Positions 1-32,582 of a DNA stretch of 34,848 nt are shown in pieces. Source of the DNA: an uncultured bacterium (GTDB lineage Bacteria > Patescibacteriota > Minisyncoccia > Phycocordibacterales > PALSA-1337). Made by a program: the position numbers and the translations under genes. The first letter of the stretch is position 1. The number at the start of each line of letters is the position of its first letter. Where the stretch lies: contig OY969557.1 of assembly GCA_963701025.1 (NCBI GenBank), positions 1-34,848 of the forward strand, in the 5' to 3' direction. The notes below the pieces were generated by a model, which did not search any database, was not told the DNA's origin, and was given only the letters and a program-made list of their open reading frames with translations.

Positions 1-42
1 GAAGACCCGAGAGCCCTTATTTCTAGCCATTTTTTTAAGTCG

Positions 43-82
43 GTTCGAATCCCTTAAACCCGAACCTGTGAGGGATTCGAAC
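43..82. repeat. 12-bp perfect inverted repeat GTTCGAATCCCT/AGGGATTCGAAC (REP-like palindrome)
   Basis: Arms at 43-54 and 71-82; same arms at 29580-29621; lone right arm at 4014-4024. Confidence 0.8.
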
Positions 83-3989: not shown

Positions 3990-4085
3990 ATGTCTGGCAA
4001 AAATAAACCACTCGGGATTCGAACTAATTTATGAAAATTAAGAATCACTATATTTTAAGCCATGACTGAGGGGCGACCCGAGTGG

Positions 4086-4148
4086 GTTCGAACATCTTAT
4101 CCCCCGCAGTCAGTATTTAGTATCGGATGACCCTGAGGCCTCGATAAA
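4086..4148 (-). other. att-like junction homologous to the right end of the LSR2 element
   Basis: CCGCA(4104-4108)-N12-TATCGGA-N7-GAGGCCTYGATAAA has identical spacing to 29517-29560; GTTCGAAC on the other side in both. Confidence 0.55.
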
Positions 4149-6553: not shown

Positions 6554-7885
6554 TTAGACTGATTCTATGGTTACAACCTTCGCCGTTACCTTGATCTTCG
6601 ACTTAAAGCATCCCATGAGCTCGCGTTTTTCTTCGTTGGTGCCCTCGCATAGAATGTATTTGGCGTAAGTCTTGAGGTCGATGTCCTTATGCGTCGATTC
6701 CTGCTTCTTGATGCCGAGCACTCCTTTATGGAATTTGTTGTGGCGTTTCAACTCCTCCTCGAATTTATGCTGTATGCCGACATCGTTTAAGTCGATCTGA
6801 TCCATGATAGAGAGGAGCTGTTCAACTAACTCTTCCTCTCGTATGTACTGGCTTTTACAATGTCGGTCTTTCGATCTGCCGCATCCGTAGTAGATGTACT
6901 TGGCCACCGTGCCATCTTTCAACTGCTTGTACTTTTCCTCGGCTGATATGCTCGATCCGCAGAGGCCGCATACCATGAGCTTGGTGAAGGCGAACTCATG
7001 GCTTTGCCGTTCAATACCGTCCCGATGCATTTGTTCTTGTACTCTATCGAATAGCTCTTTTGACACGATCGGCTCATGTTTACCCTGATACCAGTTTCCA
7101 GACTTTTTCGGATACTCGAATGTGCCGTAATAGAAGGGATTTTGGAGAGTGCGGAATATATTACCTAGGGCCATATTGTGATTACCGATCGTCTTGAAGT
7201 TAAGATCGAATTTGAGCCAGTGATATATTTTTCGACCAGACCATTTTTCATCGGCCATTTTTTCGTACATCTTTTTTACGATCGGCGCCCGATCAAGATC
7301 GATGATTTTTTGGCATTTTTTGTCTATCAACTTCTGATCCAAGTATCCGACTGGAGCCATTCCTGGAAATAGCCCCATCTCTACTCTCGTTCTCAGTCCG
7401 CGCTTTACATTGATGCCTCGGTTATCATTCTCGAGCTTGGCCTGACTTCCTAGTATCATAAGGAGGAACTTTTCGTTAGGATTATTTCTGAAGCTCTGTC
7501 CATATGTCCTTATTTCCTGAAGCTTTCCGGCATCCATAAGGTCGACGATTTTACCAAGGTCACCGGCGTTGCGGCTGATCCTATCTGGTGCCCAGGTGAG
7601 AATGCCGTTGAACTTGCCTTGCCTGATTTCATCGACGATCTCATTGAAGACCGGCCTTTGCCCAGTCTCTTTAGCAGAGTGGCTTTCACGCTTCATTGTC
7701 ACGATCTCAAGTCCCTCACGTTCAGCTAGTTGGAGCATCTCCTTGATCTGGCTGTCGATGGAGAGGACTTGGCGTTCCTCTGATTCAGTACTTTTTCTCG
7801 CGTAGAGGCAGTATTTGACGGGTATGATTTCCGGGGCCTGCCTCGCTATTTGTCCCAGATTTACCCTTGTGGTTGCTTGTTGCAT
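6554..7885 (-). CDS. Large serine recombinase LSR1 (resolvase + recombinase + Zn-ribbon)
   Basis: YCLYARKST catalytic Ser, APDRISRN, CGLCG...YYGC Zn ribbon. Confidence 0.95.
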   Translation of the reverse strand: MQQATTRVNLGQIARQAPEIIPVKYCLYARKSTESEERQVLSIDSQIKEMLQLAEREGLEIVTMKRESHSAKETGQRPVFNEIVDEIRQGKFNGILTWAPDRISRNAGDLGKIVDLMDAGKLQEIRTYGQSFRNNPNEKFLLMILGSQAKLENDNRGINVKRGLRTRVEMGLFPGMAPVGYLDQKLIDKKCQKIIDLDRAPIVKKMYEKMADEKWSGRKIYHWLKFDLNFKTIGNHNMALGNIFRTLQNPFYYGTFEYPKKSGNWYQGKHEPIVSKELFDRVQEQMHRDGIERQSHEFAFTKLMVCGLCGSSISAEEKYKQLKDGTVAKYIYYGCGRSKDRHCKSQYIREEELVEQLLSIMDQIDLNDVGIQHKFEEELKRHNKFHKGVLGIKKQESTHKDIDLKTYAKYILCEGTNEEKRELMGCFKSKIKVTAKVVTIESV

Positions 7886-7914
7886 GTTTATATACCTTTT
7901 AGCCGGTATACCTC

Positions 7915-7976
7915 AAGGAATGACGCAGACCGCCCAAGGAGTCCAGAGCGTCCCGGGTGGCTATAAGTTGGTAACT
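7915..7976. repeat. Bipartite conserved site AAGGNATGACGCA-N37-39-GTTGGTAA, copy 1
   Basis: Also at 10766-10825 and 32321-32380; copies 1 and 3 share GACCGC..AAGGA(A)GTCCAGA and lie just upstream of LSR1 and LSR3. Confidence 0.7.
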
Positions 7977-8031
7977 AATGCTTCAAAATTCCCTTGAAAA
8001 TGCTAGAATTCAATATCACTCGTGCGATTTT

Positions 8032-10737
8032 ATGATTACCCTTAACGAAATCAGGAAACGGTCCGTCGCATTCGCCCATGAATGGGAACGAGAGTATAGC
8101 GAAGATGCGGAAGCAAAAAGCTTTTGGGATGGGTTTTTCAATGTCTTCGGCGTTTCTCGCAGGCGCGTAGCCACTTTTGAGTATCCGGTCAAAAAGTTAG
8201 ACGGTGGGCAGGGATATATTGATGTCATTTGGAAAGGCATTATGCTTGCTGAACATAAAACTCGTGGCAAAAGCCTGGATAAAGCATATGCTCAGGCCAG
8301 AGAGTATTTTCCCGGTTTGAAAGACCAAGAGCTTCCCCGATATATTGTCGTCTCCGATTTTGAAAAAATCCGCTTGTATGATTTGGAGACGAATAAACAT
8401 GAAGAATTTCTACTCAAAGATCTGCATAACTACGTAGACCTTTTCGGCTTTATTTCAGGCTACAGGGTTCAGGTATATGAAAAAGCAGAAGAAGCAAGCA
8501 TTGAGGCCGCTGAATTGATGGCTGATTTTCATAATGAGATAGCGAAGACGGGATATAGCGGACACGATCTTGAGGTCTTTCTCATCCGTATCCTTTTTTG
8601 TCTTTTTGCCGACAATACTGGTATTTTCCCAAAAAATCATTTCCGCGCGTATATAGAGAATAGGATCAACAAGGACGGTTCTGATCTCGGCATACATTTA
8701 TTGCAGATTTTCGATGTGCTCAATACGCCCAAGGAAAAGAGGCAGACGAATCTCGACGAGCAACTAATGGCATTTGACTATATCAACGGAGGCATCTTTG
8801 CTGAACGGATTAAGTCCGTATCGCTCGACGCGACCGCCCATCTCAAACTCATAAGGTGTTGTAAGTTCGATTGGTCGCAAATATCGGCGTCCATTTTCGG
8901 TTCATTGTTTCAAGGTGTCATGGACGAGAAAGCCCGTCGTCAGCTTGGTGCTCATTACACGTCGGAAATAAATATACTGAAGGTCATTCATCCACTTTTT
9001 CTCGATGAGCTTCACATCGAATTTGATCAGGTCAAATATGATTCCAAGAAACTTGATGCTTTCCATAAAAAGCTTTCACAGCTGACATTCCTCGATCCTG
9101 CATGCGGATGCGGAAATTTCCTCGTTATAGCGTATCGCGAGCTTCGCAAGCTTGAGATCGATATTCTACTTAAAAAGCGCACGACCAAAGACTCAAGTAT
9201 GCGGATATTCGGAGCCGATGAACTCTCGACGATAAATGTCAATCAATTCTACGGTATCGAGATCGAAGAATTTCCGGCTCTTGTCGCCCGTGTCGCGATG
9301 TATCTCGTCGATCATCAAATGAACCAATTGCTCTCTGAGAAGTTCGGCGAAATATACGCACGTATTCCTCTGCGGGAACCCGCAACGATCATCAACGCGG
9401 ATGCTTTGACTACTGATTGGGAAAAAGTTGTCTCGAAAGGTAAACTCTCATATATTCTCGGTAATCCGCCTTTTGTCGGCGCGCGCCTCATGGAGAAAAA
9501 ACAAAAGGAGATTTTCTTGAGCCTCTTTGATGATGCAAAAGGGGCTGGTAATCTTGATTTTGTTACCGCATGGTATGAGAAAGCGGCTCGATATATGGGG
9601 GGCACGCATATCAAGACCGCCTTCGTGTCCACAAACTCTATCTGCCAGGGTGAGCAGGTCGCCATTCTCTGGAAAAGATTGAAAGAAAAATATGCTGTAA
9701 CGATTCACTTCGCGCATGAGACGTTCAAATGGAATAACGACGCACCCGGCGTCGCCGCAGTCTATTGTGTTATTGTTGGCTTCGCTTGTTTTGATACTCC
9801 GAAAAAGTATCTCTATGAATACGAGACTATAAAAAGCGAGCCAAAAGAAAAAGAAGTCTCGCACATAAATGCGTATCTTGTCGCCGGTGGCGATGTGTTT
9901 ATAGAAAACAGACGAACTCCAGTATCTTCGGTGCCAGAAATCGTGTTTGGAAGCATGCCCAACGATGGAGGCAATTTTCTTTTTACTGAAAGCGAGAAAG
10001 ACGAGTTTCTAGAAGCGGAGCCAGGTGCAAAAGCCTTTATGAAAGAACTCATCAGTGCGAAAGAATATCTGAACGGCGAAAAACGTTATTGCTTGTGGCT
10101 CAAAGATATTGAGCCGAAAGCTTTGAAGGGACTGCCAAAGGTTTTGGAACGAGTGGAGAATATCAAAAGACTACGGGCTGAAAGCACTCGCAAAGAAACA
10201 CAGGAATTGGCACATTACCCGACTCTTTTTGGTGAGATACGTCAACCAGATAGTGACTATATTGCAATCCCCCGTGTCAGCTCAGAAAACAGGGTGTATA
10301 TTCCAATGAGTTTTTTCGATAAAGAAAAGATCGTCGGAGATACATGCCTTGCTGTTCCAAACGCTACACTGTATGACTTTGGTATTCTCCAATCTCTGAT
10401 GCATATGACGTGGGTATCGTATGTGTGTGGGAGGCTAAAGAGTGATTACCGTTACTCGAATACACTCGTCTACAATAATTTTCCTTGGCCGGAAAATGTG
10501 TCCGACGAACACAAGAAAAAAGTCGAGGAATATGCACAAAAAGTCCTCGATGTTCGTCTACAATCTTCACATAGCTCTCTCGCTGATTTATATGATCCAA
10601 ACACGATGCCACCGGAGCTTGTTAAAGCACACACTGATCTCGATAGGACGGTGGACGCGTGCTACGAAAAAAAGTTTTTAAACAAAGAGACCCGAATCGA
10701 ATTTTTATTCTGGTTGTATAAGGAATTGACTAAGTAA
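8032..10737 (+). CDS. MmeI-family (type IIL/IIG) fused restriction endonuclease-N6A methyltransferase
   Basis: N-terminal IDVIW..LAEHK PD-(D/E)xK, GAHYT, LDPACGCGNFL, GNPPF, C-terminal RYSNTLVYNNFPWP; start ATG 8032. Confidence 0.92.
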   Translation: MITLNEIRKRSVAFAHEWEREYSEDAEAKSFWDGFFNVFGVSRRRVATFEYPVKKLDGGQGYIDVIWKGIMLAEHKTRGKSLDKAYAQAREYFPGLKDQELPRYIVVSDFEKIRLYDLETNKHEEFLLKDLHNYVDLFGFISGYRVQVYEKAEEASIEAAELMADFHNEIAKTGYSGHDLEVFLIRILFCLFADNTGIFPKNHFRAYIENRINKDGSDLGIHLLQIFDVLNTPKEKRQTNLDEQLMAFDYINGGIFAERIKSVSLDATAHLKLIRCCKFDWSQISASIFGSLFQGVMDEKARRQLGAHYTSEINILKVIHPLFLDELHIEFDQVKYDSKKLDAFHKKLSQLTFLDPACGCGNFLVIAYRELRKLEIDILLKKRTTKDSSMRIFGADELSTINVNQFYGIEIEEFPALVARVAMYLVDHQMNQLLSEKFGEIYARIPLREPATIINADALTTDWEKVVSKGKLSYILGNPPFVGARLMEKKQKEIFLSLFDDAKGAGNLDFVTAWYEKAARYMGGTHIKTAFVSTNSICQGEQVAILWKRLKEKYAVTIHFAHETFKWNNDAPGVAAVYCVIVGFACFDTPKKYLYEYETIKSEPKEKEVSHINAYLVAGGDVFIENRRTPVSSVPEIVFGSMPNDGGNFLFTESEKDEFLEAEPGAKAFMKELISAKEYLNGEKRYCLWLKDIEPKALKGLPKVLERVENIKRLRAESTRKETQELAHYPTLFGEIRQPDSDYIAIPRVSSENRVYIPMSFFDKEKIVGDTCLAVPNATLYDFGILQSLMHMTWVSYVCGRLKSDYRYSNTLVYNNFPWPENVSDEHKKKVEEYAQKVLDVRLQSSHSSLADLYDPNTMPPELVKAHTDLDRTVDACYEKKFLNKETRIEFLFWLYKELTK

Positions 10738-10765
10738 ACCTGACTTTACTTTAAAAATAATGATA

Positions 10766-10825
10766 AAGGTATGACGCAACTCGTCTTAGAAGCCTAGGGC
10801 GTCCGAATAACTCAAGGTTGGTAAT
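10766..10825. repeat. Bipartite site, degenerate copy 2 (downstream of the MmeI-like gene)
   Basis: AAGGTATGACGCA at 10766-10778 and GTTGGTAAT at 10817, spacing matching the other copies. Confidence 0.55.
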
Positions 10826-10882
10826 CATATCGACACAGTCGACCAATTTTATGGCTAATTCTCTTAATTCGAGCTCATTTAT

Positions 10883-10919
10883 GGGCGGAAAACAAGCTGT
10901 TGGTAACTCGGCTTCGCAA
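10883..10919. repeat. Right-arm copy GGGCGG...GTTGGTAACTCGGCTTCGCAA
   Basis: Matches GTTGGTAACTGGGCTTCGCAA at 32371-32391 except one base. Confidence 0.65.
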
Positions 10920-11024
10920 AAGGCCTTGTCTAAGCTAGGGTACTGACTAAAGCTCTTTTTTGCGCTATTATTGCCTTACAACTGAATATTAGTAGTTGAC
11001 CTAACCCTTGCGGACTTTCTGTGA

Positions 11025-11165
11025 GGCATGGTCGAAAATCCCGCTAGAGATCAAAGGACTCCTCGTCAGAGTCACTCTAGCGGGTCATACCGGGAAACTG
11101 GTATGGGCAGGGCCGAAAGGTTTTGTCGCGATGGCGAGGAGTCTTTTGACGTTCCAAGACTCCCA
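11025..11165 (+). ncRNA. Candidate structured leader RNA M1, copy 1
   Basis: 10-bp stem 11040-49/11075-84, CATACCGG-GAAA-CTGGTATG, second GAAA hairpin; same layout with different stem sequence at 32465-32582. Confidence 0.6.
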
Positions 11166-13495: not shown

Positions 13496-14767
13496 CTATT
13501 TTTGCTCCTGCGGCGGTGCCACAGGCCTGTTCTGATAGCTCTTTTTTGCTTCCGCAAGTACCCTTGATATTTCCTCCCTCGGCGGATCTTTCCGATCGAG
13601 ATCGGTAAACTGGATGCCGCGTTCCTTGTACCATCCGAAGAGCCAATCGTAGAAGTAGGTGGTCATATGCTTGTATCCCTCAGCGCTTGTAAGGGGCCAC
13701 AGAAGATCGACGTTGCCATAATAGCGTTGATAGGAGTCATCGGCGATCGTGAAGTGCGTCCGTGGAGTGTCGATCGGCACGGATATGACGAACGGCTCCA
13801 TTTGCGCGATGAGGGGAGTTTGGTATATCACTTTTTCCGGCCTGTATCTAGGCTCCCGTCCTTCGAGTATATAGGGGTTGCTGTCGTCATCATCACGACC
13901 ATCGCGGTGCCAACCCAAGATCTTCAGCAGAAACTCTCGGGTCCATACTCCTCGGGTGAAATGTCCCCTCATCCTTTCGATACTGTCGAGATCAGGAAAC
14001 CGCTCCGGCCAGAGAATGCGCCGCTCGTCGTCGAGGAGGGGGTACGCTCGAAAGATGCCGGATAGACCTTTTTCGTCAATCTTTTTCTTGAGTCTCATAA
14101 GGAGCGAATCAGGACAGATGAGATTGCCGAGGACAACGATCCGCGTTCCCTTGCTTCCAAGCGGCAAGACCTCGCTCGTCAGCCTCTGCCAGGCGGTGTT
14201 GCGGTTCGCTTCATCCTTGGCTGTCGAGGTGTCCTCGATGTCATCGCAGATGATGAGGTCAGGACGGATCGTGCCGTACTTGAGGCCGCGGATGCTCTGC
14301 TCAAGCGACACCGATTGAATCTTCGATTCGTGATACACGAGATCGAGCGACATCTTTTTCCATTCAGCCTCGTTGTCGCTGAAGGGTCCGAAGTCCGCCC
14401 GCAGGAGTTCGTTCGAGAGAAGCTCGTCACGGATACTCGTGAAGTGACTCTTGGCCTGATCCTGCGTCTGGCTGACGATGACTGCGAACTTCTTTTGTGG
14501 CTTGCCGAGGATAGACCAGAGAATGTTGCCGGTATTCATGATTGTGGACTTGCCGGATTCCCTGAATGCCATGACGGCGATGAGCTGATGTGACGGGTTT
14601 TTCAAGATGTGGCCCATCTCGCGATGGAAGGGAGCCAGGGGATGCGAGAGGTGGTGCCGCAGATAGATGAGGCAGAACCAAAGAGGATCCTCGTAGGCAA
14701 AGCGCTTCCGTAAGTTCTGGTCGGCGAGCACTCGCTTCAGTTTTTCAAGGTCAAAATCATTCGGCAT
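13496..14767 (-). CDS. Terminase large subunit-like ATPase; nuclease domain not recognisable
   Basis: AFRESGKST Walker A, LIICDDIE Walker B, VVLGN motif III, LWPERF; C-terminal part unlike an RNase H domain. Confidence 0.75.
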   Translation of the reverse strand: MPNDFDLEKLKRVLADQNLRKRFAYEDPLWFCLIYLRHHLSHPLAPFHREMGHILKNPSHQLIAVMAFRESGKSTIMNTGNILWSILGKPQKKFAVIVSQTQDQAKSHFTSIRDELLSNELLRADFGPFSDNEAEWKKMSLDLVYHESKIQSVSLEQSIRGLKYGTIRPDLIICDDIEDTSTAKDEANRNTAWQRLTSEVLPLGSKGTRIVVLGNLICPDSLLMRLKKKIDEKGLSGIFRAYPLLDDERRILWPERFPDLDSIERMRGHFTRGVWTREFLLKILGWHRDGRDDDDSNPYILEGREPRYRPEKVIYQTPLIAQMEPFVISVPIDTPRTHFTIADDSYQRYYGNVDLLWPLTSAEGYKHMTTYFYDWLFGWYKERGIQFTDLDRKDPPREEISRVLAEAKKSYQNRPVAPPQEQK

Positions 14768-15185
14768 GGTTGGTTGGGACGGAAGGACTTCCGCCGGGAG
14801 CTAGGAATTCTTTGAAGAGCTTTTCCTCCTCCGGAGTCAGTTCAGGCACGCCTGTGGCTGGTCTGCGCACATTCTTGCCGCCGTAGCGCGGATGATTGTG
14901 TTTGAGCCAGAGGGCAATAGCCGGTAGTTTGCCTTCCTTTATGAGCTGGATCACCTGGGCTTCGCTCATGTCGTTAATGAATTCGACGCCCTGACTGAGC
15001 GCATCATCGCTGTCACGACGGAATTCGTTGTCTTCGCGTCGCCAGCGATAGTAGGTGTCGCGGGAGACCCCTGCTCGCTTGCAGGCGGCCATGACAATAG
15101 GCAACTCTCTGAGCGTGTCGACGAGCTTTTGCTTGTCATCCTTCAAGCGTTTATCGATCGTCTTTTGATAGGTGTCCTTAGTCAT
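14757..15185 (-). CDS. HTH protein, terminase small subunit-like
   Basis: IVMAACKRAGVSRDTYYRW HTH then helical oligomerisation region; overlaps the TerL-like start. Confidence 0.7.
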   Translation of the reverse strand: MTKDTYQKTIDKRLKDDKQKLVDTLRELPIVMAACKRAGVSRDTYYRWRREDNEFRRDSDDALSQGVEFINDMSEAQVIQLIKEGKLPAIALWLKHNHPRYGGKNVRRPATGVPELTPEEEKLFKEFLAPGGSPSVPTNHAE

Positions 15186-16524
15186 CGATTTTCTTGGCTT
15201 TTAGGCCGGTCGCTTTTTCCCAACGATTTCTGATGACCTCGGCGTAGACGGGTGACTTTTCCATGATAAAGCATCGGCGATTCATCTTGGTTGCGGCGAT
15301 GAGCGTCGATCCGCTTCCGCCAAAGGGTTCAAGGATGAGGTCGCCACGCTTCGTCAGGACCTTAAGATAAGGGATGAGGAGCTCAATCGGCTTCGTTCCG
15401 AAGATGATCTCCTGGCCGGACGATTTCTTGTCAGCGGCAGTGTGAGTGATATGATCAGTAGGGCAGATTTTCTTGCCCTTTTCATATTTTTCCCAGTGTG
15501 GCTTGCCGGATGTGGCGAATATAGCGTTCTCGTATTCATTTTGGAGAAGCTCATCGGATTCGGGCTCGAGGTTGAGAGCGACGTCACCGCCAGTACCGAC
15601 AAGAGCGATGTCGGTTTTATTGAAGAACTTGTACTTGGCCGAGAAGTCCTGCATTCGGTTCGGCACATGCCAGGTGATGGTGTTGCGATACTTCCAATGC
15701 TTCTCGAGCTCGTTCCAAATGATGCGGAGGTTCTTCGGATTCTCGAAGATGATGATCGAGAAGTCGGGTTTCTGTACCTTGGCTACGTTCGCCATCCATT
15801 TCTCCGTGAAGTCTGGCGGCAGGACGTCGGTCTCAAGGTACCGGCGATCGTGTTTGGCTCCGAATCCTGTGACGGCGTCGCCCTGCTTCTTTTTACCCTT
15901 TAGGTAGTCAAGGATATACGGGGGATCCGTGAAAACCATGTCGGCCTTTTCATCGCCCATAAGCCGAAGCATATCTGCCTCAACGGTCGAGTCGCCGCAG
16001 GCCAGGCGGGAATCGCCGAGCGCCCATACGTCGCTTTTCTTTATTTCGATCTCGTCTATCTTGAGCTTTTTAAGCTCCTTCTCAAGATCGAATTGCTCCG
16101 GAGTCTCCTCGACGGCGAAGATCTCGTCGAGGTCTTCCGAGCTGAATCCGGCCGTCGAAAGGAATGTCTCGTCGAAAGTGGCGAGGAGATCCCAATCCCA
16201 TTCGCCGACATTTTTGTTTAAGCGGATGTTGAGTTCCTTCTCCTTCTCGATATCTGGAATGTTGATATATACGACGGGTACTTCCTTGATGCCGAGCTCC
16301 TTTATAACGGAGAGACGGAAGTGGCCGCCTATAACGATGCCCTTGCGTTCCGGCGCGGAGTTGACGAGGAGAGGGTCGACGATGCCGTACTTACTGATGC
16401 TTTCTTTGAGATCCTTAGCCGCCTCGGTACTCCAAGTTCTAGGGTTATAGGACGCGGCTTTTAGATTTGTAACGGGGACGTATTCTACGCACAAACGAGT
16501 GTCTGCGGTTGGTTTGCTTTTCAT
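15178..16524 (-). CDS. ParB-like domain fused to N4C/N6A DNA methyltransferase
   Basis: YNPR...VIGGHFRL ParB-like; FTDPPY motif IV, TKP, LEPFGGSGST motif I. Confidence 0.88.
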   Translation of the reverse strand: MKSKPTADTRLCVEYVPVTNLKAASYNPRTWSTEAAKDLKESISKYGIVDPLLVNSAPERKGIVIGGHFRLSVIKELGIKEVPVVYINIPDIEKEKELNIRLNKNVGEWDWDLLATFDETFLSTAGFSSEDLDEIFAVEETPEQFDLEKELKKLKIDEIEIKKSDVWALGDSRLACGDSTVEADMLRLMGDEKADMVFTDPPYILDYLKGKKKQGDAVTGFGAKHDRRYLETDVLPPDFTEKWMANVAKVQKPDFSIIIFENPKNLRIIWNELEKHWKYRNTITWHVPNRMQDFSAKYKFFNKTDIALVGTGGDVALNLEPESDELLQNEYENAIFATSGKPHWEKYEKGKKICPTDHITHTAADKKSSGQEIIFGTKPIELLIPYLKVLTKRGDLILEPFGGSGSTLIAATKMNRRCFIMEKSPVYAEVIRNRWEKATGLKAKKIDD

Positions 16525-17263: not shown

Positions 17264-18841
17264 TCACGGGTACTTAACCCGACTAGCCCGCAAATTCGCA
17301 AAAAGCGCGAAATCGCTCGAAAAAGGCGAAAGAGAAATACCAAGTGGAGGGCGGGGCGGAATTCCCCCCTGAAACCCCCCTTCCGCCCCGCCCGCATTTT
17401 TGTTGACCGTTTGGGGAATTGCGGGAACAAATGCGAAGGGTGCGCGGGGCGAAAAAACGAGGGTGCGGTCGCGTATGACAAAGTTCGAACCGACTTTTTG
17501 GAAAAAAGATCGGATTTTAGTAGGATCACCCTCATCTGCCACAAACTTGGCTTGCTTACTCGCTTCCAGGAAATTTTTCACTGGTTCGAACCGATTTGTT
17601 GAAACCTGTGCCAAAGATGCTAATTTGTCGTTCAGAGCATGTTTTTCAGTCACCAGTTTGTTTTTGGCATTTTGATATTCTGGAAGCGTTAGAGCGTTCT
17701 CTAGGTATGCTGTCATGAGTTTGTCGAGCTTCGAATCGACGATGGTAATTTCTGCATTCACTTTATCAGTCTCATTTTTCAGAAGTTTATCATTTTCAGA
17801 TCTATCTTTTTCATTTTCAATTATTAGCCAATCAGCTACCTCGTCAGCCAGGGAGTATTTTTTCAGTTCCGTTTGCATTTGCGAAGTGATGACCTCCTCA
17901 CGAACGTATTTTTGATTGCAAACTCCTTTTCGTTTTGTGCATCGCAAATAATTATGACCTTTTTGTGTTTCTGTGGTTATGAAGCAACCGCATTCACCGC
18001 AATGGAATAGGCCTCTGTAGTCATAAGATTTCAGTTCTGACGTTTTAGGTTTGCTTTTTCTGGTCATAACCTCTTGAACATCGTCAAAAAGCTTTTTCGA
18101 GATAATAGGTTCATGCTTACCTTCATAAAATTCTCCACCATATCGAATAAGTCCATGGTAAAAGGGATTTTTCAAAAGATATTGATAGTTGGAAATAGAA
18201 AGCACGCCATCGCCAGTGCCTTTTAGACCAAGATCATTGATTTTTCTCCTGACCTGGGCGAATGTGAAATTGCCAGTGGCATATGCCTCAAAAGTCTTTT
18301 TCACGAGTATGGATTTTACCGGATCAACGACGATAGTTTTTATCTTTTTATCATTCAAATATCCCAGTGGTGCTTTTTGAGGCCATATTCCATTCTTCAA
18401 TTTCTGTCTGTGTCCGCGTTTGATGTTCTCTGACAAGTTGTCTACATAATATTTACTCTGGCCAAAGGAGATTGAAAGCATAAATTTTCCCTGCGGAGTT
18501 GCATCAAACCAGAACGTCGGGAATTTCAGATCAGTGATCTTGCCAATATCCACAAGGTAAATGACACGACCACCATCAATGGAGTTACGAGCGAGTCTGT
18601 CAGGGTGCCATGCGAGGATGCCGGAGGCCTCACCGGCTTCTATGCGGTCCAACATTTCAGCGAAAATAGGCCTGCCAGGTACTTTGGCGGTTTGTTTCTC
18701 TATAAAAGTATCGACAACATCAATTTTTTCCTTTCTAGCGAGCTCACGCAGTTCTGCCAACTGGTCAGGCAGGCTTCTGATTTGATGATCTTTGTCATCA
18801 GTCGATTTTCTGGCGTAAATAAAATATTTTTTATCACTCAT
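17264..18841 (-). CDS. Large serine recombinase LSR2 with coiled-coil insertion
   Basis: YFIYARKST, HPDRLARN, CGECG...YLRC Zn ribbon, coiled coil; its 3' end spans the predicted crossover. Confidence 0.95.
   Translation of the reverse strand: MSDKKYFIYARKSTDDKDHQIRSLPDQLAELRELARKEKIDVVDTFIEKQTAKVPGRPIFAEMLDRIEAGEASGILAWHPDRLARNSIDGGRVIYLVDIGKITDLKFPTFWFDATPQGKFMLSISFGQSKYYVDNLSENIKRGHRQKLKNGIWPQKAPLGYLNDKKIKTIVVDPVKSILVKKTFEAYATGNFTFAQVRRKINDLGLKGTGDGVLSISNYQYLLKNPFYHGLIRYGGEFYEGKHEPIISKKLFDDVQEVMTRKSKPKTSELKSYDYRGLFHCGECGCFITTETQKGHNYLRCTKRKGVCNQKYVREEVITSQMQTELKKYSLADEVADWLIIENEKDRSENDKLLKNETDKVNAEITIVDSKLDKLMTAYLENALTLPEYQNAKNKLVTEKHALNDKLASLAQVSTNRFEPVKNFLEASKQAKFVADEGDPTKIRSFFQKVGSNFVIRDRTLVFSPRAPFAFVPAIPQTVNKNAGGAEGGFQGGIPPRPPLGISLSPFSSDFALFANLRASRVKYP
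17293..17474 (-). repeat. Arm A (182 bp), inverted copy of 19123-19304
   Basis: Core-proximal ~120 bp identical; about 9 substitutions in the distal ~60 bp (manual alignment). Confidence 0.9.
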
Positions 18842-18907
18842 GAATATATTTTACCAAATTTTTGTAAAGTCAAACAGATGTTCATAACTTTTTTCACTAA
18901 ACTCTAT

Positions 18908-19070
18908 CGAGAAGCGGTCGACTTCCGCTTTTAGCTACAAGTCCCGAGCGGATGTCGGTGCGGCGAAGCACCCAGCGGTCGCTCCAAGCGACGGCTGGGG
19001 TTTTCGTGCGGAGCCGTTCGGACATCCGCGTAAAAATATCGTTAAAGCGGAAGTGGGCCGCTTCGACTCA
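18908..19070 (+). other. Long branched hairpin M2, copy 1
   Basis: Outer 21-bp stem GAAGCGGTCGACTTCCGCTTT/AAAGCGGAAGTGGGCCGCTTC; compensatory changes relative to 29067-29231. Confidence 0.7.
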
Positions 19071-19122: not shown

Positions 19123-19360
19123 ACGCGACCGCGCCCTCGTTTTTTTGCCTCGCGCGCCTTTTGCATTTGTCCCCGAAATTCCCAAAACGGTCAACAAAAA
19201 TGCGGGCGGGGCGGAAGGGGGGTTTCAGGGGGGAATTCCGCCCCGCCCTCCACTTGGTATTTCTCTTTCGCCTTTTTCGAGCGATTTCGCGCTTTTTGCG
19301 AATTTGCGGCAGTTTTTACTTGAAGTTCGAACATTTTTTATGGAAAATCCTCATAATTGA
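19123..19360 (+). pseudogene. 3' remnant of an LSR2-like gene in unrecombined form
   Basis: Translates as PRAPFAFVP...LFANLRQFLLEVRTFFMENPHN*; matches the LSR2 tail up to LR; no upstream recombinase body. Confidence 0.6.
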
Positions 19361-19503
19361 AGTGAAAGAAAATGGTGTCGCTCCGCGACGCTGTTTTCTT
19401 GTGGGGTTGCGCCTTCGCTCCGCTCGGCGCGTGGAGAGGGCGTGCGCGGCAGGAGGGGTGTGGGGAGGAATGCCGCGCCGCCCTGCTGATTTTTTCGCGC
19501 GGG
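19123..19503 (+). repeat. Joined A-core-B (attP-like) copy, inverted relative to the element ends
   Basis: A 19123-19304, TGCGG 19305-19309, B 19310-19503. Confidence 0.85.
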
Positions 19504-28376: not shown

Positions 28377-28979
28377 ATGGATGATCAAAATACGCCTATA
28401 GAGCCAGCCACAGAAGCACCAGCGCAGGCTCAAGAATCTGCCCCAACTCCTATTGAGCCGGAATCTAGCCAGCCAAATGGCTCTACGCCTACCGATTTGC
28501 CCCCTGAGGCCCCAGAATCGCCTATAAACGCTTCTAGTGATACTCCCGTTGAAGATCAAAATCAAGGGGTAAACCAGCCAGAAAGCAACACCCCAGAAGA
28601 GCCAATTTCTACTCCAAATGAGCCAGAAAATCCAGTAGATGATCAATCAGCTCCAGTGCAATCTGTACCTGTCTCAGCGCCGACGCTACAGACTCCGACA
28701 GCCTCACAACCACAACCGTCGGCGCTGGAGAACCAGACCAGCTTCATCCGCGCACTTCTCGCTAAAGCGAACGCAAAACTTGGTTCAAACAGACAAAAGA
28801 AGCTCGACAAGGTTATGCTGACAGCACAAAAGAAAGGATTCATAACCAACGAACAAGCTCAAGAACTTCTGCATTGCTCCGATGCCACTGCCACTAGATA
28901 TCTTTCAAAATTGGTTCAGCAAGGAAGATTGAATCGCACAGACGGATCGCACTGGGTGAAATATATTTTTGTGCGCTGA
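28377..28979 (+). CDS. C-terminal wHTH protein with long Pro/Glu/Ser-rich disordered N-terminus
   Basis: ITNEQAQELLHCSDATATRYLSKLVQQGRL DeoR-like HTH. Confidence 0.8.
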   Translation: MDDQNTPIEPATEAPAQAQESAPTPIEPESSQPNGSTPTDLPPEAPESPINASSDTPVEDQNQGVNQPESNTPEEPISTPNEPENPVDDQSAPVQSVPVSAPTLQTPTASQPQPSALENQTSFIRALLAKANAKLGSNRQKKLDKVMLTAQKKGFITNEQAQELLHCSDATATRYLSKLVQQGRLNRTDGSHWVKYIFVR

Positions 28980-29044
28980 ATCTTGCGGCTCAGATGGTCA
29001 AACCTCTTGCGGATCAAATGGTGGATTTGAGCCGCAAGGTTTTC
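28979..29044. repeat. Iterated operator-like block R1 (2 direct + 1 inverted CTTGCGGMTCARA)
   Basis: Near-identical block at 29251-29315. Confidence 0.8.
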
Positions 29045-29066
29045 TAGATTTCTTTCTTCTTTCAAC

Positions 29067-29231
29067 CGAGAAACGGTCGACTTCCGCTTCTCACCACGAG
29101 TTCTGAGCGGATGTTTGTGCGGCGTAGCACTGCACGGTCGCCTCGGGCGACGGTGCAGGTTTCCGTGCGAAGCCGTTCTGACATCCGCGTAATGACTTTA
29201 TCTGAAGCGGAAGTGGGCCGCTTCGAGTCAC
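29067..29231 (+). other. Long branched hairpin M2, copy 2
   Basis: Covarying copy of 18908-19070. Confidence 0.7.
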
Positions 29232-29250: not shown

Positions 29251-29315
29251 AATCTTGCGGATCAGATGGCAGAATGGCTTGCGGATCAAATGGTGGATTT
29301 GAGCCGCAAGGTTTC
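29251..29315. repeat. Iterated block R2
   Basis: Direct repeat of 28979-29044. Confidence 0.8.
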
Positions 29316-29322
29316 CTAAATA

Positions 29323-29516
29323 CCCGCGCGAAAAAATCAGCAGGGCGGCGCGGCATTCCTCCCCACACCCCTCCTGCCGCGCACGCCCTCTCCACGCGCC
29401 GAGCGGAGCGAAGGCGCAACCCCACAAGAAAACAGCGTCGCGGAGCGACACCATTTTCTTTCACTTCAATTATGAGGATTTTCCATAAAAAATGTTCGAA
29501 CTTCAAGTAAAAACTG
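29323..29516 (-). repeat. Arm B (194 bp), inverted copy of 19310-19503
   Basis: No difference seen by eye; the ORF track gives identical translations in both places. Confidence 0.9.
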
Positions 29517-29579
29517 CCGCACTTAGGTTTTATTATCGGACTATGTCGAGGCCTTGATAAATAGGCCTTGTTTGGAATC

Positions 29580-29621
29580 GTTCGAATCCCTCAAAGATTC
29601 ACCCTCTAGTGGGATTCGAAC
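29580..29621. repeat. GTTCGAATCCC/GGGATTCGAAC palindrome, copy 2
   Basis: Same arms as 43-82, different loop. Confidence 0.8.
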
Positions 29622-29652
29622 TTCATGATATAGTGAAATTATATTTTTACCT

Positions 29653-30985: not shown

Positions 30986-32303
30986 TTACACCACCTCCAC
31001 CACTCCCTTCGTGATCTTGAGTTTCGAGCGGAAGCATCCCATAAGCTCGCGCTTCTCCTCGTTCGTGCCCTCCTTGAGGATGTATTTCGCGTAGGTCTTG
31101 ATGTCCACTTCCTCGTGCGATGCGCCTGGTTTGCCGAGTCCGAGCACCGTGCGTTGGAATTTGTTGAAGCGCTTGAGCTCGTCCTCGAACTTGTAGCGGA
31201 TGCCGTGCTCGTTGAATTCGAGCTTGCCCAGAAGACCAGTTAGCTGTTCGATCAGCACTTCCTCGCGCAAATATTTGTTACCTCTGCAATTTTTGTCGCG
31301 GGTGCGCCCGCAGCCGTAGTACACATATCTTGCGGTCGTGCCGTCTTTCAGTTGCTTGTATTTCTCCTCGGCCGATATGCACGATCCGCATGCTCCGCAG
31401 GTCATCAGTTTCGTGAAGGCGAACTCGTGGCTTTCTCGCTGGATACCGTCGCGCTTGAGCCGCGCTTGTACTTTGTCGAAGAGCTCTTGTGTCACGAGTG
31501 GCTCATGCTTGCCCTGATACCAGTTGCCGCTCTTCTTCGGGAACTCGAAGATGCCGTGATAGAAGGGATTTTGAAGAGTTCGATATACATTGCCGAGGGA
31601 AAGCGGCTTGTTGCCGGTCGTGTGGAAGTTGAGCTCGAAGCGGAGCCAGTGGTATACCTTCCGACCAGACCATTCCTCGTGTGCCACTTTCTCGAACATC
31701 TTCTTGATGACATGTCCTCGCTCGGGGTCGATGATCACCTGGCTCTTGCGATCGGCGATCCGCTGATTCAGGTATCCGGTCGGAGCGGTGCCGGGCCGGT
31801 ATCCCATCTCGCATCGCGTTCGCAGTCCGCGCTTCACGTTGATACCTCGGTTGTCGTTCTCGAACTTCGCCTGCGATCCGAGAATCATCAAGAGGAATTT
31901 CTCGTTCGGGTTATTGCGAAAACTTCTGCCCGTACGTCCGGATCTCGAGAAGCTTTCCAGCGTCCATGAGGTCGACGATCTTGCCGAGGTCACCTGCGTT
32001 ACGGCTGATGCGGTCCGGCGCCCACGTGAGGATGCCGTTATACTTCTCATCCTTGATCTCCTCGACAATCTCGTTGAAGATCGGCCGTTGGCCGGTCTCC
32101 TTGGCCGAGTGCGACTCTCGCTTCATGGCCACGATCTCCAAGTCCTCGCGCTCGGCGAGCTGGAGCATCTCCTTTACCTGGCTGTCTATGGAGAGGACTT
32201 GGCGTTCCTCCGATTCCGTCGATTTTCTGGCATAAAGGCAGTATTTCACCTTTACGGGGCTTGCCGGTTTGGGTCCAGGCCCCAACGGCCCTTGTGATTG
32301 CAT
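30986..32303 (-). CDS. Large serine recombinase LSR3, paralog of LSR1, one +1 frameshift near 31915-31925
   Basis: KYCLYARKSTESEERQVLSIDSQ in one frame, FRNNPNEKFLLMILGSQAK...CGACG in the next; collinear with LSR1. Confidence 0.9.
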
Positions 32304-32320
32304 ATGTGTCATACAGCTAC

Positions 32321-32391
32321 AAGGGATGACGCAGACCGCTAAGGAAGTCCAGATCCTTTGAAAGGGCGGAGTTGGTAACTGGGCTTCGCAA
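32321..32391. repeat. Bipartite site copy 3 with GGCTTCGCAA right arm
   Basis: Matches 7915-7976 and 10899-10919. Confidence 0.7.
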
Positions 32392-32464
32392 TCACTTGCT
32401 TTTATGGTACAGTTTCGACACAACCGAATATGTGAAAAGTAGCCTAAACCCTCGAGAAATCGGC

Positions 32465-32582
32465 GGCATGGCGAAAAACCAGTAACGGATAGAGAACCCA
32501 TCATATGGGGTCACCGTTACTGGTCATATCGGGAAACTGGTATGGGTGCCGCAAGGCATCACCCATGTGGTGGGCTTTGTGT
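32465..32582 (+). ncRNA. Candidate structured leader RNA M1, copy 2
   Basis: 11-bp stem 32478-88/32514-24, CATATCGG-GAAA-CTGGTATG, GTGCC-GCAA-GGCAT. Confidence 0.6.

What the first reader, a model, noticed from the sequence alone, without database searches (positions are those of the whole stretch)
7915..10919. MmeI-type R-M gene bracketed by direct repeats at an LSR-proximal site (integron-like cassette?)
ATGACGCA-N37-39-GTTGGTAA precedes (7915-7976) and follows (10766-10825) the gene. The right arm GTTGGTAACTNGGCTTCGCAA, which is contiguous with the site next to LSR3, reappears only at 10899-10919. This is the pattern expected if cassettes were inserted at GTTGGTAA next to a divergent recombinase gene, as in integrons but with a serine recombinase. 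Alternative: a duplicated divergent promoter/operator.
Basis: inference. Interest (0 to 1): 0.65.

Follow-up and report, generated by a model that had tools for sequence, protein, structure and literature searches.

The report
Leftover recombinase control regions flank MmeI
The repeats around the MmeI restriction gene are real, but they are copies of a control region that sits in front of one very large family of serine recombinase genes in Patescibacteria; the downstream copy most likely survives from a recombinase gene that was lost, and is probably not an integron-style cassette site.

Summary
ATGACGCA-N37-39-GTTGGTAA occurs three times (7920-7974, 10771-10824, 32326-32378) against 0 expected. 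GTTGGTAACTNGGCTTCGCAA occurs at 10899-10919 and 32371-32391.

The motif sits directly upstream of the recombinase (LSR) gene in 73 of 80 related Patescibacteria loci. The family has more than 7,900 members. It shows no conserved fold, so it is probably a protein-binding DNA region. A rightward promoter often follows it.

The "right arm" is the first part of the conserved leader of a LOOT RNA gene (RF03000; 10998-11127 and 32441-32560).

DNA behind the motif is a variable cargo zone, mostly restriction-modification and other defence genes. In the 93%-identical relative, the same motif and promoter type precede a different gene. In this sub-lineage the cargo junction therefore lies after the promoter, not at GTTGGTAA.

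None of 80 MmeI relatives carries the motif. Copy 2 belongs to a different recombinase lineage than copy 1. In locus L013 an equivalent second copy still holds the first 19 recombinase codons.

Best reading (0.55): islands at a tRNA-Ser hot spot piled up and shuffled, and redundant recombinase genes were lost. Integron-like capture is not supported but not excluded (about 0.12). No reads were available to test excision.

The parts
4085..4140 (-). Probable left end of the island. The conserved junction sequence (CCTCAGGGTCATCCGATACTAAAT...) abuts a decayed tRNA-like stretch, just after pyrF.
   Evidence: In relatives the same junction, CTCGGGTCRCAC..CCGATACTAAATTGTC|GGCGGAG, abuts the 3' end of a tRNA, usually tRNA-Ser. 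ARAGORN finds no intact tRNA in the window.
6554..7885 (-). LSR1, a large serine recombinase gene (443 aa).
   Evidence: Pfam Resolvase, Recombinase and Zn_ribbon_recom domains. More than 7,900 homologues at E<=1e-100. 80 genome loci at 65-83% identity, almost all labelled Patescibacteria/CPR (a few MAGs carry other taxon labels).
7914..7979 (+). Motif copy 1, the LSR 5' control region. Block A is ATGACGC at 7920-7926. Block B is AGTCCAG at 7940-7946, followed by GCGTCC at 7948-7953. Block C is GTTGGTAA at 7967-7974.
   Evidence: nhmmer score 61.4 bits against a profile built from 65 relatives. About 91% identical to the same region in L169.
7982..8009 (+). Rightward promoter P_R1 (TTCAAA-16-TAGAAT, with TG), divergent from LSR1. 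It is inferred to drive MmeI.
   Evidence: Promoter scan. The same promoter type follows the motif in L169, L003, L007 and L026. Promoter-like sites follow the motif in 33 of 58 loci against about 10 expected.
8032..10737 (+). MmeI-family type IIL restriction-modification gene (cargo). The open reading frame extends back to 7978.
   Evidence: Five MmeI Pfam domains, E-values 1e-22 to 1e-88. Homologues align from residue 18-19. None of 80 relatives has the motif or this LSR within 6 kb.
10761..10883 (+). Motif copy 2 with its tail, an orphan LSR control region of another lineage. The core is 10771-10824. A terminator-like hairpin lies at 10830-10842.
   Evidence: nhmmer score 30.8 bits. The best local alignment is to the LSR-upstream region of L019/L021 and includes about 60 nt beyond GTTGGTAA. 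No leftward gene is present.
10884..10997 (+). LOOT leader, which is also a remnant of a third motif. It holds a degenerate 8-mer and GTTGGTAAC (10899-10907), CTTCGCAA (10912-10919), TAAGCTAGGGTAC (10932-10944), and a promoter-like site CTGACT-17-TATTAT (10943-10971).
   Evidence: Alignment to LOOT leaders of 16 relatives. Best matches are L014 and L052. Promoter scan.
10998..11127 (+). LOOT RNA gene, copy 1.
   Evidence: Rfam RF03000, 81 bits against a gathering score of 46.4. Own covariance model, 101 bits.
30986..32303 (-). LSR3, a frameshifted paralogue of LSR1.
   Evidence: tblastn gives two frames: residues 23-142 in one and 129-440 in another. 72-78% nucleotide identity to LSR1.
32320..32440 (+). 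Motif copy 3 (core 32326-32378), contiguous with its LOOT leader (from 32371). This is the compact, uninterrupted arrangement.
32441..32560 (+). LOOT RNA gene, copy 2.
   Evidence: Rfam RF03000, 91.9 bits.

Best explanation
The ATGACGC..AGTCYAG(AGCGTCC)..GTTGGTAA motif is the conserved 5' control region of one large family of serine recombinase genes. These genes are carried on islands that sit at the 3' ends of tRNA-Ser genes in Patescibacteria.

The motif is double-stranded DNA bound by a protein. That protein could be the recombinase itself or an island regulator; this is inferred, not shown. In many loci a rightward promoter (P_R) follows it and reads away from the recombinase gene into whatever lies next. 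That is either a LOOT RNA gene with its conserved leader, or variable cargo that is mostly defence genes.

In this window MmeI is such cargo behind LSR1's P_R. The motif copy after MmeI is the control region of a second recombinase module of a different lineage whose gene has been lost. The third GTTGGTAAC plus CTNGGCTTCGCAA is the start of the LOOT leader and the stub of a third module.

The arrangement arose when related islands were added one after another and recombined with each other, and the redundant recombinase genes were then deleted. It did not arise by capture of a cassette at GTTGGTAA.

Shown here: the conservation, the positions, the lineage assignment and the varying breakpoints. 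Inferred: protein binding, promoter activity, and the order of events.
For: 1. The motif lies directly upstream of the LSR gene in 73 of 80 genome loci and in all 8 viral-contig hits, down to 52% LSR identity.
2. RNAalifold finds no conserved structure in 52 copies (-0.66 kcal/mol, 3 invariant pairs). What is seen is invariant blocks with spacers of varying length.
3. Extra copies precede other leftward genes: a 110-aa gene in 6 loci and a Dam-type methylase gene in L017.
4. A rightward promoter-like site lies within 75 nt in 33 of 58 loci against about 10 expected. The first ORF behind the motif is divergent in 42 of 61 loci.
5. One P_R type is shared by the window, L169 (93% LSR identity), L003, L007 and L026. 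Where a downstream gene can be read (window, L169, L007, L026) it differs each time.
6. Copy 2 matches the L019/L021 type over about 125 nt, while copy 1 matches the L169/L027 type.
7. In L013 the second copy is 94.5% identical over 55 nt, brackets YcaO and DUF2268 cargo, and keeps the first 19 LSR codons.
8. LOOT-proximal copies are cut at different points: block B is kept in L043 and L025, and only the 8-mer elsewhere.
9. The island's own junction is elsewhere. It is a conserved arm next to a tRNA 3' end, 0.1-7 kb beyond the LSR stop codon, and at about 4085-4140 in the window.
10. None of 80 MmeI relatives has the motif.
11. The compact form LSR<-motif->LOOT exists in LSR3, L170 (84% identity), L052, L063, L002 and L008.
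Against: - No remnant of recombinase coding sequence is left beside copy 2. Only 22-33 nt separate it from the MmeI stop codon, so the deletion would have been unusually tidy.
- Copy 2 keeps all three blocks with only one change at a near-invariant position. This could mean it is still in use.
- Between close relatives, identity falls from about 90% to about 55% right after GTTGGTAAC(TAA). In L050 similarity ends inside GTT|GGTAA, and in L048 just before it. A recombination hot spot at the 8-mer would also give this pattern.
- Direct repeats of the motif flank a gene or cargo in 8 independent loci.
- Nothing shows which protein binds the motif, or where transcripts start.
Confidence: 0.55

Rival explanations
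1. This is a serine-recombinase version of an integron. The LSR binds the motif and exchanges DNA at or next to GTTGGTAA. Units of promoter plus cargo are thereby inserted or swapped between the LSR and the LOOT leader, leaving GTTGGTAA on both sides.
For: - A conserved, apparently protein-binding site lies next to the recombinase gene.
- Cargo is variable.
- GTTGGTAA(C) stands at both borders in the window, L043, L045 and L054, and approximately in L017, L024, L044 and L073.
- Identity between close relatives ends at GTTGGTAAC. In L050 it ends within GTT|GGTAA.
- The near-identical repeat in L013 ends at GTTGGTA.
- 9-12 nt of identity is short for RecA-type recombination (general knowledge).
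Against: - The P_R type is inherited together with the LSR and motif while the gene behind it differs.
- Orphan copies are cut at different left-hand points, including inside the LSR gene.
- No cargo-borne site is shared, and MmeI relatives lack the motif.
- There are never more than two full copies.
- The spacing between blocks B and C varies by more than 10 nt, which is unlike known LSR half-sites (general knowledge).
- Known LSRs recombine unlike attP and attB sites (general knowledge).
- Overall, GTTGGTAA is not enriched on the motif strand in the flanks: 15 against 12 on the other strand and 8.6 expected.
Confidence: 0.12
2. Copy 2 is a working control region rather than a dead remnant. 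Its hairpin ends the MmeI transcript. Its rightward promoter adds to LOOT expression. Its leftward half starts an antisense RNA into the 3' end of MmeI, which tunes the restriction enzyme.
For: - All three blocks are kept.
- A terminator-like hairpin lies at 10830-10842.
- A promoter-like stretch lies at the same distance from GTTGGTAA as in the LSR3 copy (direct reading).
- The left half of the motif precedes leftward genes elsewhere.
Against: - Its profile score is in the lowest fifth of all copies (30.8 bits).
- No RNA data exist for this locus. Searches found only LOOT relatives.
- No other locus shows a motif facing the 3' end of a convergent gene.
Confidence: 0.2
3. The motif is the attachment site (attP, or attL/attR) of the LSR element. 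The MmeI segment is a separate small element integrated into it.
For: - Phage serine integrase genes usually lie beside attP (general knowledge).
- The A/B part is an imperfect dyad, GACGC-N21-GCGTC (direct reading).
Against: - The whole motif is intact in 73 loci inside integrated islands.
- A different conserved junction abuts the tRNA on the other side of the LSR gene.
- Variable genes lie on both sides of the LSR gene.
- The MmeI segment carries no recombinase and has no relatives with the motif.
Confidence: 0.05

Closest known systems
Integron platform (intI, Pc, attI, attC cassettes)
   Same: The recombinase gene is divergent from a promoter that reads into variable, often defence-related cargo. 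A conserved site lies between the recombinase gene and the cargo.
   Different: The recombinase is a serine, not a tyrosine, recombinase. There is no attC-like folded site at cargo ends and no arrays. Cargo junctions are not at one nucleotide. The conserved site lies upstream of the promoter, not downstream of it.
res site of Tn3/gamma-delta resolvase
   Same: A site of several blocks lies directly upstream of a serine recombinase gene, between divergent promoters. This makes autoregulation by the recombinase a reasonable model.
   Different: The recombinase here is a large serine recombinase on a tRNA-linked island, not a small resolvase on a transposon. Neither binding nor resolution has been tested. 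No transposase partner is present.
SCC/ccr composite islands at rlmH in staphylococci
   Same: Large serine recombinases are involved. Elements are added one after another at a single chromosomal site. The result is mosaics with repeated site remnants and lost recombinase genes.
   Different: In SCC the repeats are the attachment sequences at element ends. Here the repeated unit is the internal control region upstream of the recombinase gene.
tRNA-linked genomic or defence islands with cargo next to the integrase gene
   Same: The island sits at a tRNA 3' end, defence genes cluster next to the integrase gene, and cargo turns over quickly between relatives.
   Different: The integrase is a large serine recombinase; most tRNA islands use tyrosine integrases. 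The hosts are Patescibacteria. A LOOT RNA gene is a recurrent partner.
LOOT RNA motif (Rfam RF03000; Weinberg et al. 2017, PMC5737381)
   Same: Both copies pass the family threshold with full-length matches.
   Different: No genomic context or function could be found in the held literature. Here the RNA is tied to one LSR family and has a conserved leader that begins with GTTGGTAAC.

Membership tests
Integron | Tyrosine recombinase IntI | tested here: not met
   LSR1 has Resolvase, Recombinase and Zn_ribbon_recom domains.
Integron | Each cassette ends in an attC site, an imperfect inverted repeat that folds as single-stranded DNA | tested here: not met
   No conserved structure in 52 motif copies. 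No motif at cargo ends in L017, L024, L043, L045 or L054. None in 80 MmeI relatives.
Integron | Arrays of several promoterless cassettes behind one promoter | tested here: not met
   At most two full motif copies per locus in 88 loci. Cargo often holds several genes, some on the other strand.
Integron | Recombination at a fixed point in the site next to the integrase gene | tested here: inconclusive
   Breakpoints cluster around the 8-mer in some pairs. The P_R type is co-inherited while the genes behind it differ. Orphan copies are cut at different points.
LSR attachment site (attP/attL/attR) | Lies at the element boundary and is split into hybrid sites after integration | tested here: not met
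   The motif is intact and internal. A different conserved arm abuts the tRNA beyond the LSR 3' end.
LSR attachment site (attP/attL/attR) | A 40-50 bp imperfect inverted repeat around a central dinucleotide, bound by the LSR | not testable with these tools
   A partial dyad GACGC-N21-GCGTC is visible. Binding needs EMSA or footprinting.
res-type regulatory and recombination site of serine recombinases | Lies directly upstream of the recombinase gene, between divergent promoters | tested here: met
   Position in 73 of 80 loci. Rightward promoter-like sites are enriched about 3-fold. The leftward promoter was not identified.
res-type regulatory and recombination site of serine recombinases | The recombinase binds the site, represses transcription and resolves direct repeats | not testable with these tools
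   No reads cover the locus deeply enough. The best run holds only about 2x fragments.
LOOT RNA (RF03000) | Score above the Rfam gathering threshold over the full model | tested here: met
   81.0 and 91.9 bits against 46.4, model positions 1-121.
MmeI-family type IIL restriction-modification enzyme | MmeI N-terminal, helicase-spacer, methyltransferase, TRD and C-terminal domains in one polypeptide | tested here: met
   All five Pfam domains pass their cut-offs.

The most novel reading that the evidence does not exclude
The motif is a working recombination site. The family's serine recombinase uses it to load or swap promoter-plus-cargo units between itself and the LOOT RNA leader. This would be a serine-recombinase counterpart of the integron that stocks defence genes in Patescibacteria. 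The LOOT RNA might take part in the reaction or in its control.
Probability: 0.1. Interest if true: 0.85.

Novelty: new variant of a known kind. Interest (0 to 1): 0.4.

Why it matters
- It gives a genomic home to LOOT RNA, for which no genomic context or function turned up in the held literature. LOOT sits divergent from one very large family of serine recombinase genes on tRNA-Ser-linked islands of Patescibacteria.
- It defines a strongly conserved ~55-nt DNA element of unknown binding partner in front of more than 70 of these genes.
- It marks the stretch behind that element as a place where defence genes turn over quickly. That makes it a practical search site for new defence systems in a poorly studied phylum.
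- Large serine recombinases are genome-engineering tools, so a family of this size with a conserved regulatory or recombination site is worth a binding test.
- As an integron-like system it would be important, but the present data do not support that.

Tried and rejected
- **Reads for an excised circle or empty site.** The best DNA run holds only about 2x exact fragments of the locus, and other runs hold diverged relatives. No informative joints were found.
- **RNA runs.** Only LOOT relatives were found, none from this locus, so transcript starts could not be mapped.
- **Exact-protein look-ups** of LSR1 and MmeI: not on record.
- **Rfam search on the motif region:** nothing.
- **RNA or single-stranded DNA hairpin idea for the motif.** By eye some spacers looked paired, but RNAalifold found no conserved structure. 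Rejected.
- **Motif as coding sequence.** An in-frame stop lies at 7913-7915 on the LSR strand (direct reading). Rejected.
- **Motif as a sigma-70 promoter for the LSR gene.** No consistent -35/-10 pair could be placed. Left open.
- **Direct repeats of the tRNA tail** to find the far end of the island: none within 8 kb.
- **The 110-aa protein that lies between two motif copies in six relatives** (candidate regulator or directionality factor): no Pfam domain and no homologue in the window.
- **Terminal-inverted-repeat idea.** The tRNA-side arm and the GTTGGTAA end share about 9 of 16 positions by eye. Too weak to use.
- **General enrichment of GTTGGTAA on the motif strand in the flanks:** not seen, 15 against 12.
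- **First pairwise identity screen** was distorted by truncated sequences. It was replaced.
- **Literature.** Nothing was found on LSRs in Patescibacteria or on serine-recombinase cassette systems. LOOT is not discussed in the main text of the paper that described it, and no supplement is held.
Full report
**1. The observation**

The pattern ATGACGCA-N(30-45)-GTTGGTAA occurs three times on the + strand: 7920-7974, 10771-10824 and 32326-32378. No match appeared in 100 shuffles. GTTGGTAA alone occurs four times against 0.65 expected, and the extra one is at 10899. GTTGGTAACTCGGCTTCGCAA (10899-10919) and GTTGGTAACTGGGCTTCGCAA (32371-32391) differ only at the N position. Copies 1 and 2 are only about 65% identical, while copies 1 and 3 are 85% identical over the left half. 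They are therefore not a fresh duplication.

**2. The genes around it**

- ORF 6554-7885 (-) is a large serine recombinase, LSR1, with Resolvase, Recombinase and Zn_ribbon_recom domains.
- ORF 7978-10737 (+) has all five MmeI domains.
- A paralogue, LSR3 (30986-32303, -), is 72-78% identical in DNA and is frameshifted.
- LSR2 (17264-18841) is only 36% identical and has no motif.
- The window starts with pyrimidine-synthesis genes. The rest is an island rich in restriction-modification and phage-like genes.
- MmeI homologues align only from residue 18-19. The likely start is therefore the ATG at 8032, and 7982-8009 is a promoter-like site, TTCAAA-16-TAGAAT with TG.

**3. What the "right arm" is**

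Rfam finds two LOOT RNA genes (RF03000) at 10998-11127 (81 bits) and 32441-32560 (92 bits). Both are on the + strand and divergent from LSR1 and LSR3. The two loci align from GTTGGTAAC through the RNA.

A covariance model built here finds LOOT in 16-17 of 80 related loci. In all but one (L005) it is divergent from the LSR gene, and it lies 0.1-7.4 kb from it.

Most LOOT copies are preceded by the same leader of about 100 nt: (C)TGTTGGTAAC, 3-5 nt, CTTCGCAA, about 17 nt, TAAGCTARGGTAC, a short hairpin with a TATTAT-like box, ACAACTGAATA, then the RNA. The leading 8-mer is degenerate or missing in some copies. A second promoter-like site lies at 10943-10971.

**4. What the motif is**

A genome search with LSR1 found at least 543 relatives. 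The 80 best (65-83% identity) are almost all labelled Patescibacteria; a few MAGs carry other taxon labels. The protein database holds more than 7,900 members at E<=1e-100.

In 73 of the 80 loci a profile of the motif hits directly upstream of the LSR start. Eight viral-contig matches to the pattern all sit next to LSR genes that are 52-66% identical.

The conserved parts are block A (ATGACGC), block B (AGTCYAG, usually followed by AGCGTCC) and block C (GTTGGTAA). In 11 of 58 loci block C is preceded by a second, looser 8-mer 8-13 nt upstream, usually about 11. The spacing between B and C varies by more than 10 nt.

RNAalifold finds no conserved structure: -0.66 kcal/mol and three invariant pairs. 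An in-frame stop at 7913-7915 shows the motif is not coding. The simplest reading is a protein-binding DNA region. Which protein binds it is not known.

**5. Where the island is attached**

In about 50 loci a tRNA-Ser gene of any anticodon lies on the opposite strand, 99 nt to 7 kb beyond the LSR stop codon. Where the two are close, the conserved arm CTCGGGTCRCAC..CCGATACTAAATTGTC abuts the tRNA 3' end. In one locus the tRNA is tRNA-Asp. The window has this arm at about 4085-4140, next to a decayed tRNA-like stretch right after pyrF, and has no intact tRNA.

The attachment junction therefore lies on the other side of the LSR gene, and the motif is internal to the island. That argues against the motif being attP, attL or attR.

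**6. Cargo behind the motif**

Between the LSR gene and LOOT, relatives carry quite different genes:
- C5 methylase with an NgoFVII-like nuclease (L045)
- TaqI-type methylase (L080)
- AAA_13 ATPase (L054)
- copper ATPase and an efflux protein (L024; assigned from their N-terminal sequences only, no Pfam scan)
- a reverse transcriptase (L044)
- a sigma factor with surface proteins (L043; assigned from sequence only, no Pfam scan)
- a 1,601-aa protein (L040)

The first gene behind the motif in other loci is often a methylase, HsdM, HsdS, a type III res subunit, an OLD-family nuclease or a type ISP enzyme. That first ORF is divergent from the LSR gene in 42 of 61 loci. A sigma-70-like site lies within 75 nt of block C in 33 of 58 loci, against about 10 expected.

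So the LSR module carries a rightward promoter that reads into a fast-changing, defence-rich zone. MmeI is one such cargo.

**7. Where the cargo junctions are**

The closest relative, P0002 (93% identity, locus L169), has the same 5' UTR and motif at about 91% identity. It has the same promoter type and then a different gene. P0003 (84% identity, L170) has the compact form with LOOT directly behind the motif.

Identity between the window and L169 drops to about 55% right after GTTGGTAACTAA. On its own this could mark a breakpoint at the 8-mer. Two points weigh against that reading:
- The LSR genes are 87% identical in DNA, so about 60% identity is what neutral DNA of that age would show. This is my estimate from the coding divergence.
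- The promoter type ..CTTCAAAA..GAAAATGCTAGAAT is shared by the window, L169, L003, L007 and L026. Where a downstream gene can be read (window, L169, L007, L026) it differs each time.

The promoter therefore travels with the LSR and motif, and the cargo junction lies after its -10 box. Other close pairs lose similarity right after the 8-mer (L015 against L019), inside GTT|GGTAA (L050), or just before it (L048). The junctions cluster near the right edge of the motif but are not at one nucleotide.

**8. The second copies**

*Leftward genes.* In six loci a second copy lies 380-660 nt further on, directly upstream of a conserved 110-aa leftward gene. In L017 a partial copy precedes a leftward Dam-type methylase gene. 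The left half of the motif is therefore linked to leftward genes in general.

*L013.* A second copy lies 3.6 kb away, 94.5% identical over 55 nt. It brackets a YcaO-nitroreductase gene and a DUF2268 gene, and it still carries the first 19 codons of the LSR gene. That copy is clearly what is left of a recombinase gene's 5' end.

*Window copy 2.* With its tail (10761-10883) it aligns best to the LSR-upstream region of L019/L021, including about 60 nt beyond GTTGGTAA. Copy 1 is of the L169/L027 type. The two copies thus come from different LSR lineages. Copy 2 scores 30.8 bits, in the lowest fifth of all copies.

*The stretch 10884-10997.* It matches the LOOT leaders of L014 and L052 and keeps a degenerate upstream 8-mer and perhaps a trace of block B.

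*Other loci.* LOOT-proximal copies elsewhere keep block B (L043, L025) or only the 8-mer (L045, L054, L017).

These varying left ends fit deletions of different extent. They do not fit one fixed crossover.

**9. Tests aimed at the cassette idea**

- None of 80 metagenome loci with MmeI relatives (52-83% identity) has the motif or this LSR family within 6 kb.
- No locus has more than two full copies.
- GTTGGTAA is not generally enriched on the motif strand in the flanks: 15 against 12 on the other strand and 8.6 expected.
- Reads could not be used. The best DNA run holds only about 2x fragments. RNA runs hold only LOOT relatives.

**10. Conclusion**

The most likely history is that LSR islands at a tRNA-Ser hot spot accumulated and recombined with one another, and the surplus recombinase genes were lost. 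This left LSR1 with its control region and promoter in front of MmeI, an orphan control region of a second lineage behind MmeI, and the stub of a third fused to the LOOT leader.

I give this 0.55. A still-functional copy 2 gets 0.2 and partly overlaps with the main reading. Site-specific capture at the 8-mer gets 0.12. The motif as an attachment site gets 0.05.

Evidence that keeps the capture model alive:
- the tidy left edge of copy 2;
- the clustering of breakpoints at the 8-mer;
- the recurrence of flanking repeats in eight loci.

A recombination assay and a family-wide breakpoint map would settle the question.

**11. Comparison with known systems**

The layout resembles an integron: recombinase gene, divergent promoter, variable defence cargo. 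It fails the defining tests that could be run here. The recombinase is not a tyrosine recombinase, there is no attC-like site, there are no arrays, and the evidence for a fixed crossover point is mixed.

In position the motif resembles the res site of Tn3-type resolvases. In history the locus resembles SCC composite islands built by serine recombinases. In general kind it is a tRNA-linked defence island.

Three things appear to be new:
- the conserved motif itself;
- its link to a very large LSR family in Patescibacteria;
- the link of LOOT RNA to that family.

No paper on any of these was found.

Noticed in passing
window 10998-11127 and 32441-32560; L002, L008, L011, L012, L017, L024, L043-L045, L051, L052, L054, L063, L073, L080, L170: LOOT RNA (RF03000) is a recurrent partner of one LSR family and, with one exception (L005), is divergent from the LSR gene. 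It has a conserved leader of about 100 nt. Relatives reach a depth of about 190 in a wastewater metatranscriptome.
   Followed up: partly
window about 4085-4140; L024, L027, L052, L059, L060, L065, L076, L078 just after the LSR stop codon: The LSR family lies next to the 3' end of a convergent tRNA-Ser (once tRNA-Asp). The conserved junction CTCGGGTCRCAC..CCGATACTAAATTGTC|GGCGGAG is probably the real attachment arm. The window copy abuts a decayed tRNA-like stretch after pyrF.
   Followed up: partly
window 30986-32303 (-): LSR3 is split over two reading frames near residues 129-142. It is either a pseudogene or carries a sequencing error.
   Followed up: yes
window 17288-17474 / 19123-19309 and 19305-19503 / 29323-29521: Two long inverted repeats. 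One is 187 nt at 95% identity and overlaps the 3' end of LSR2. The other is 199 nt at 100% identity and brackets 9.8 kb of restriction-modification genes (EcoRI-like methylase, GmrSD-HNH, D12 methylase). This could be an invertible segment run by LSR2, or an assembly artefact.
   Followed up: no
window 18903-19070 and 29062-29230: A 131-nt repeat (79% identical), each copy closed by the hairpin GAAGCGGTCGACTTCCGCTT .. AAGCGGAAGTGGGCCGCTTC. One copy lies just upstream of LSR2. It is an unknown structured element with no Rfam match at the gathering score.
   Followed up: no
window 29-82, 4014-4038, 17481-17606, 19323-19347, 29575-29625: Scattered repeats that resemble a tRNA T-arm and are centred on the palindrome GTTCGAAC. 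Some occur as inverted pairs. They could be remnants of attachment sites from earlier insertions.
   Followed up: no
L044 4915-5020 and L040 2356-2460 (locus coordinates): An RNA-like element shares the 5' domain of LOOT (GACCTAACCC..ATGGTC..AAAACC) but has a different 3' part. It lies next to a reverse transcriptase gene (RVT_1). This could be a retron-like or DRT-like defence pair.
   Followed up: partly
L040, L044, L051, L075, L078, L080, between the two motif copies: A conserved 110-aa protein with no Pfam domain. The codons for its C-terminal residues LPT are GTTGGTAA read on the other strand. It is a candidate regulator or directionality factor.
   Followed up: partly
window 13496-16524 (-); L073 cargo: A set of three genes appears both here and between the LSR gene and LOOT in L073: terminase-like ATPase, HTH protein and ParB-methylase fusion.
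   Followed up: no
window 28979-29049 / 29251-29321: A 71-nt direct repeat (87% identical) with internal CTTGCGGATCAAATGG units, flanking one of the hairpin elements.
   Followed up: no
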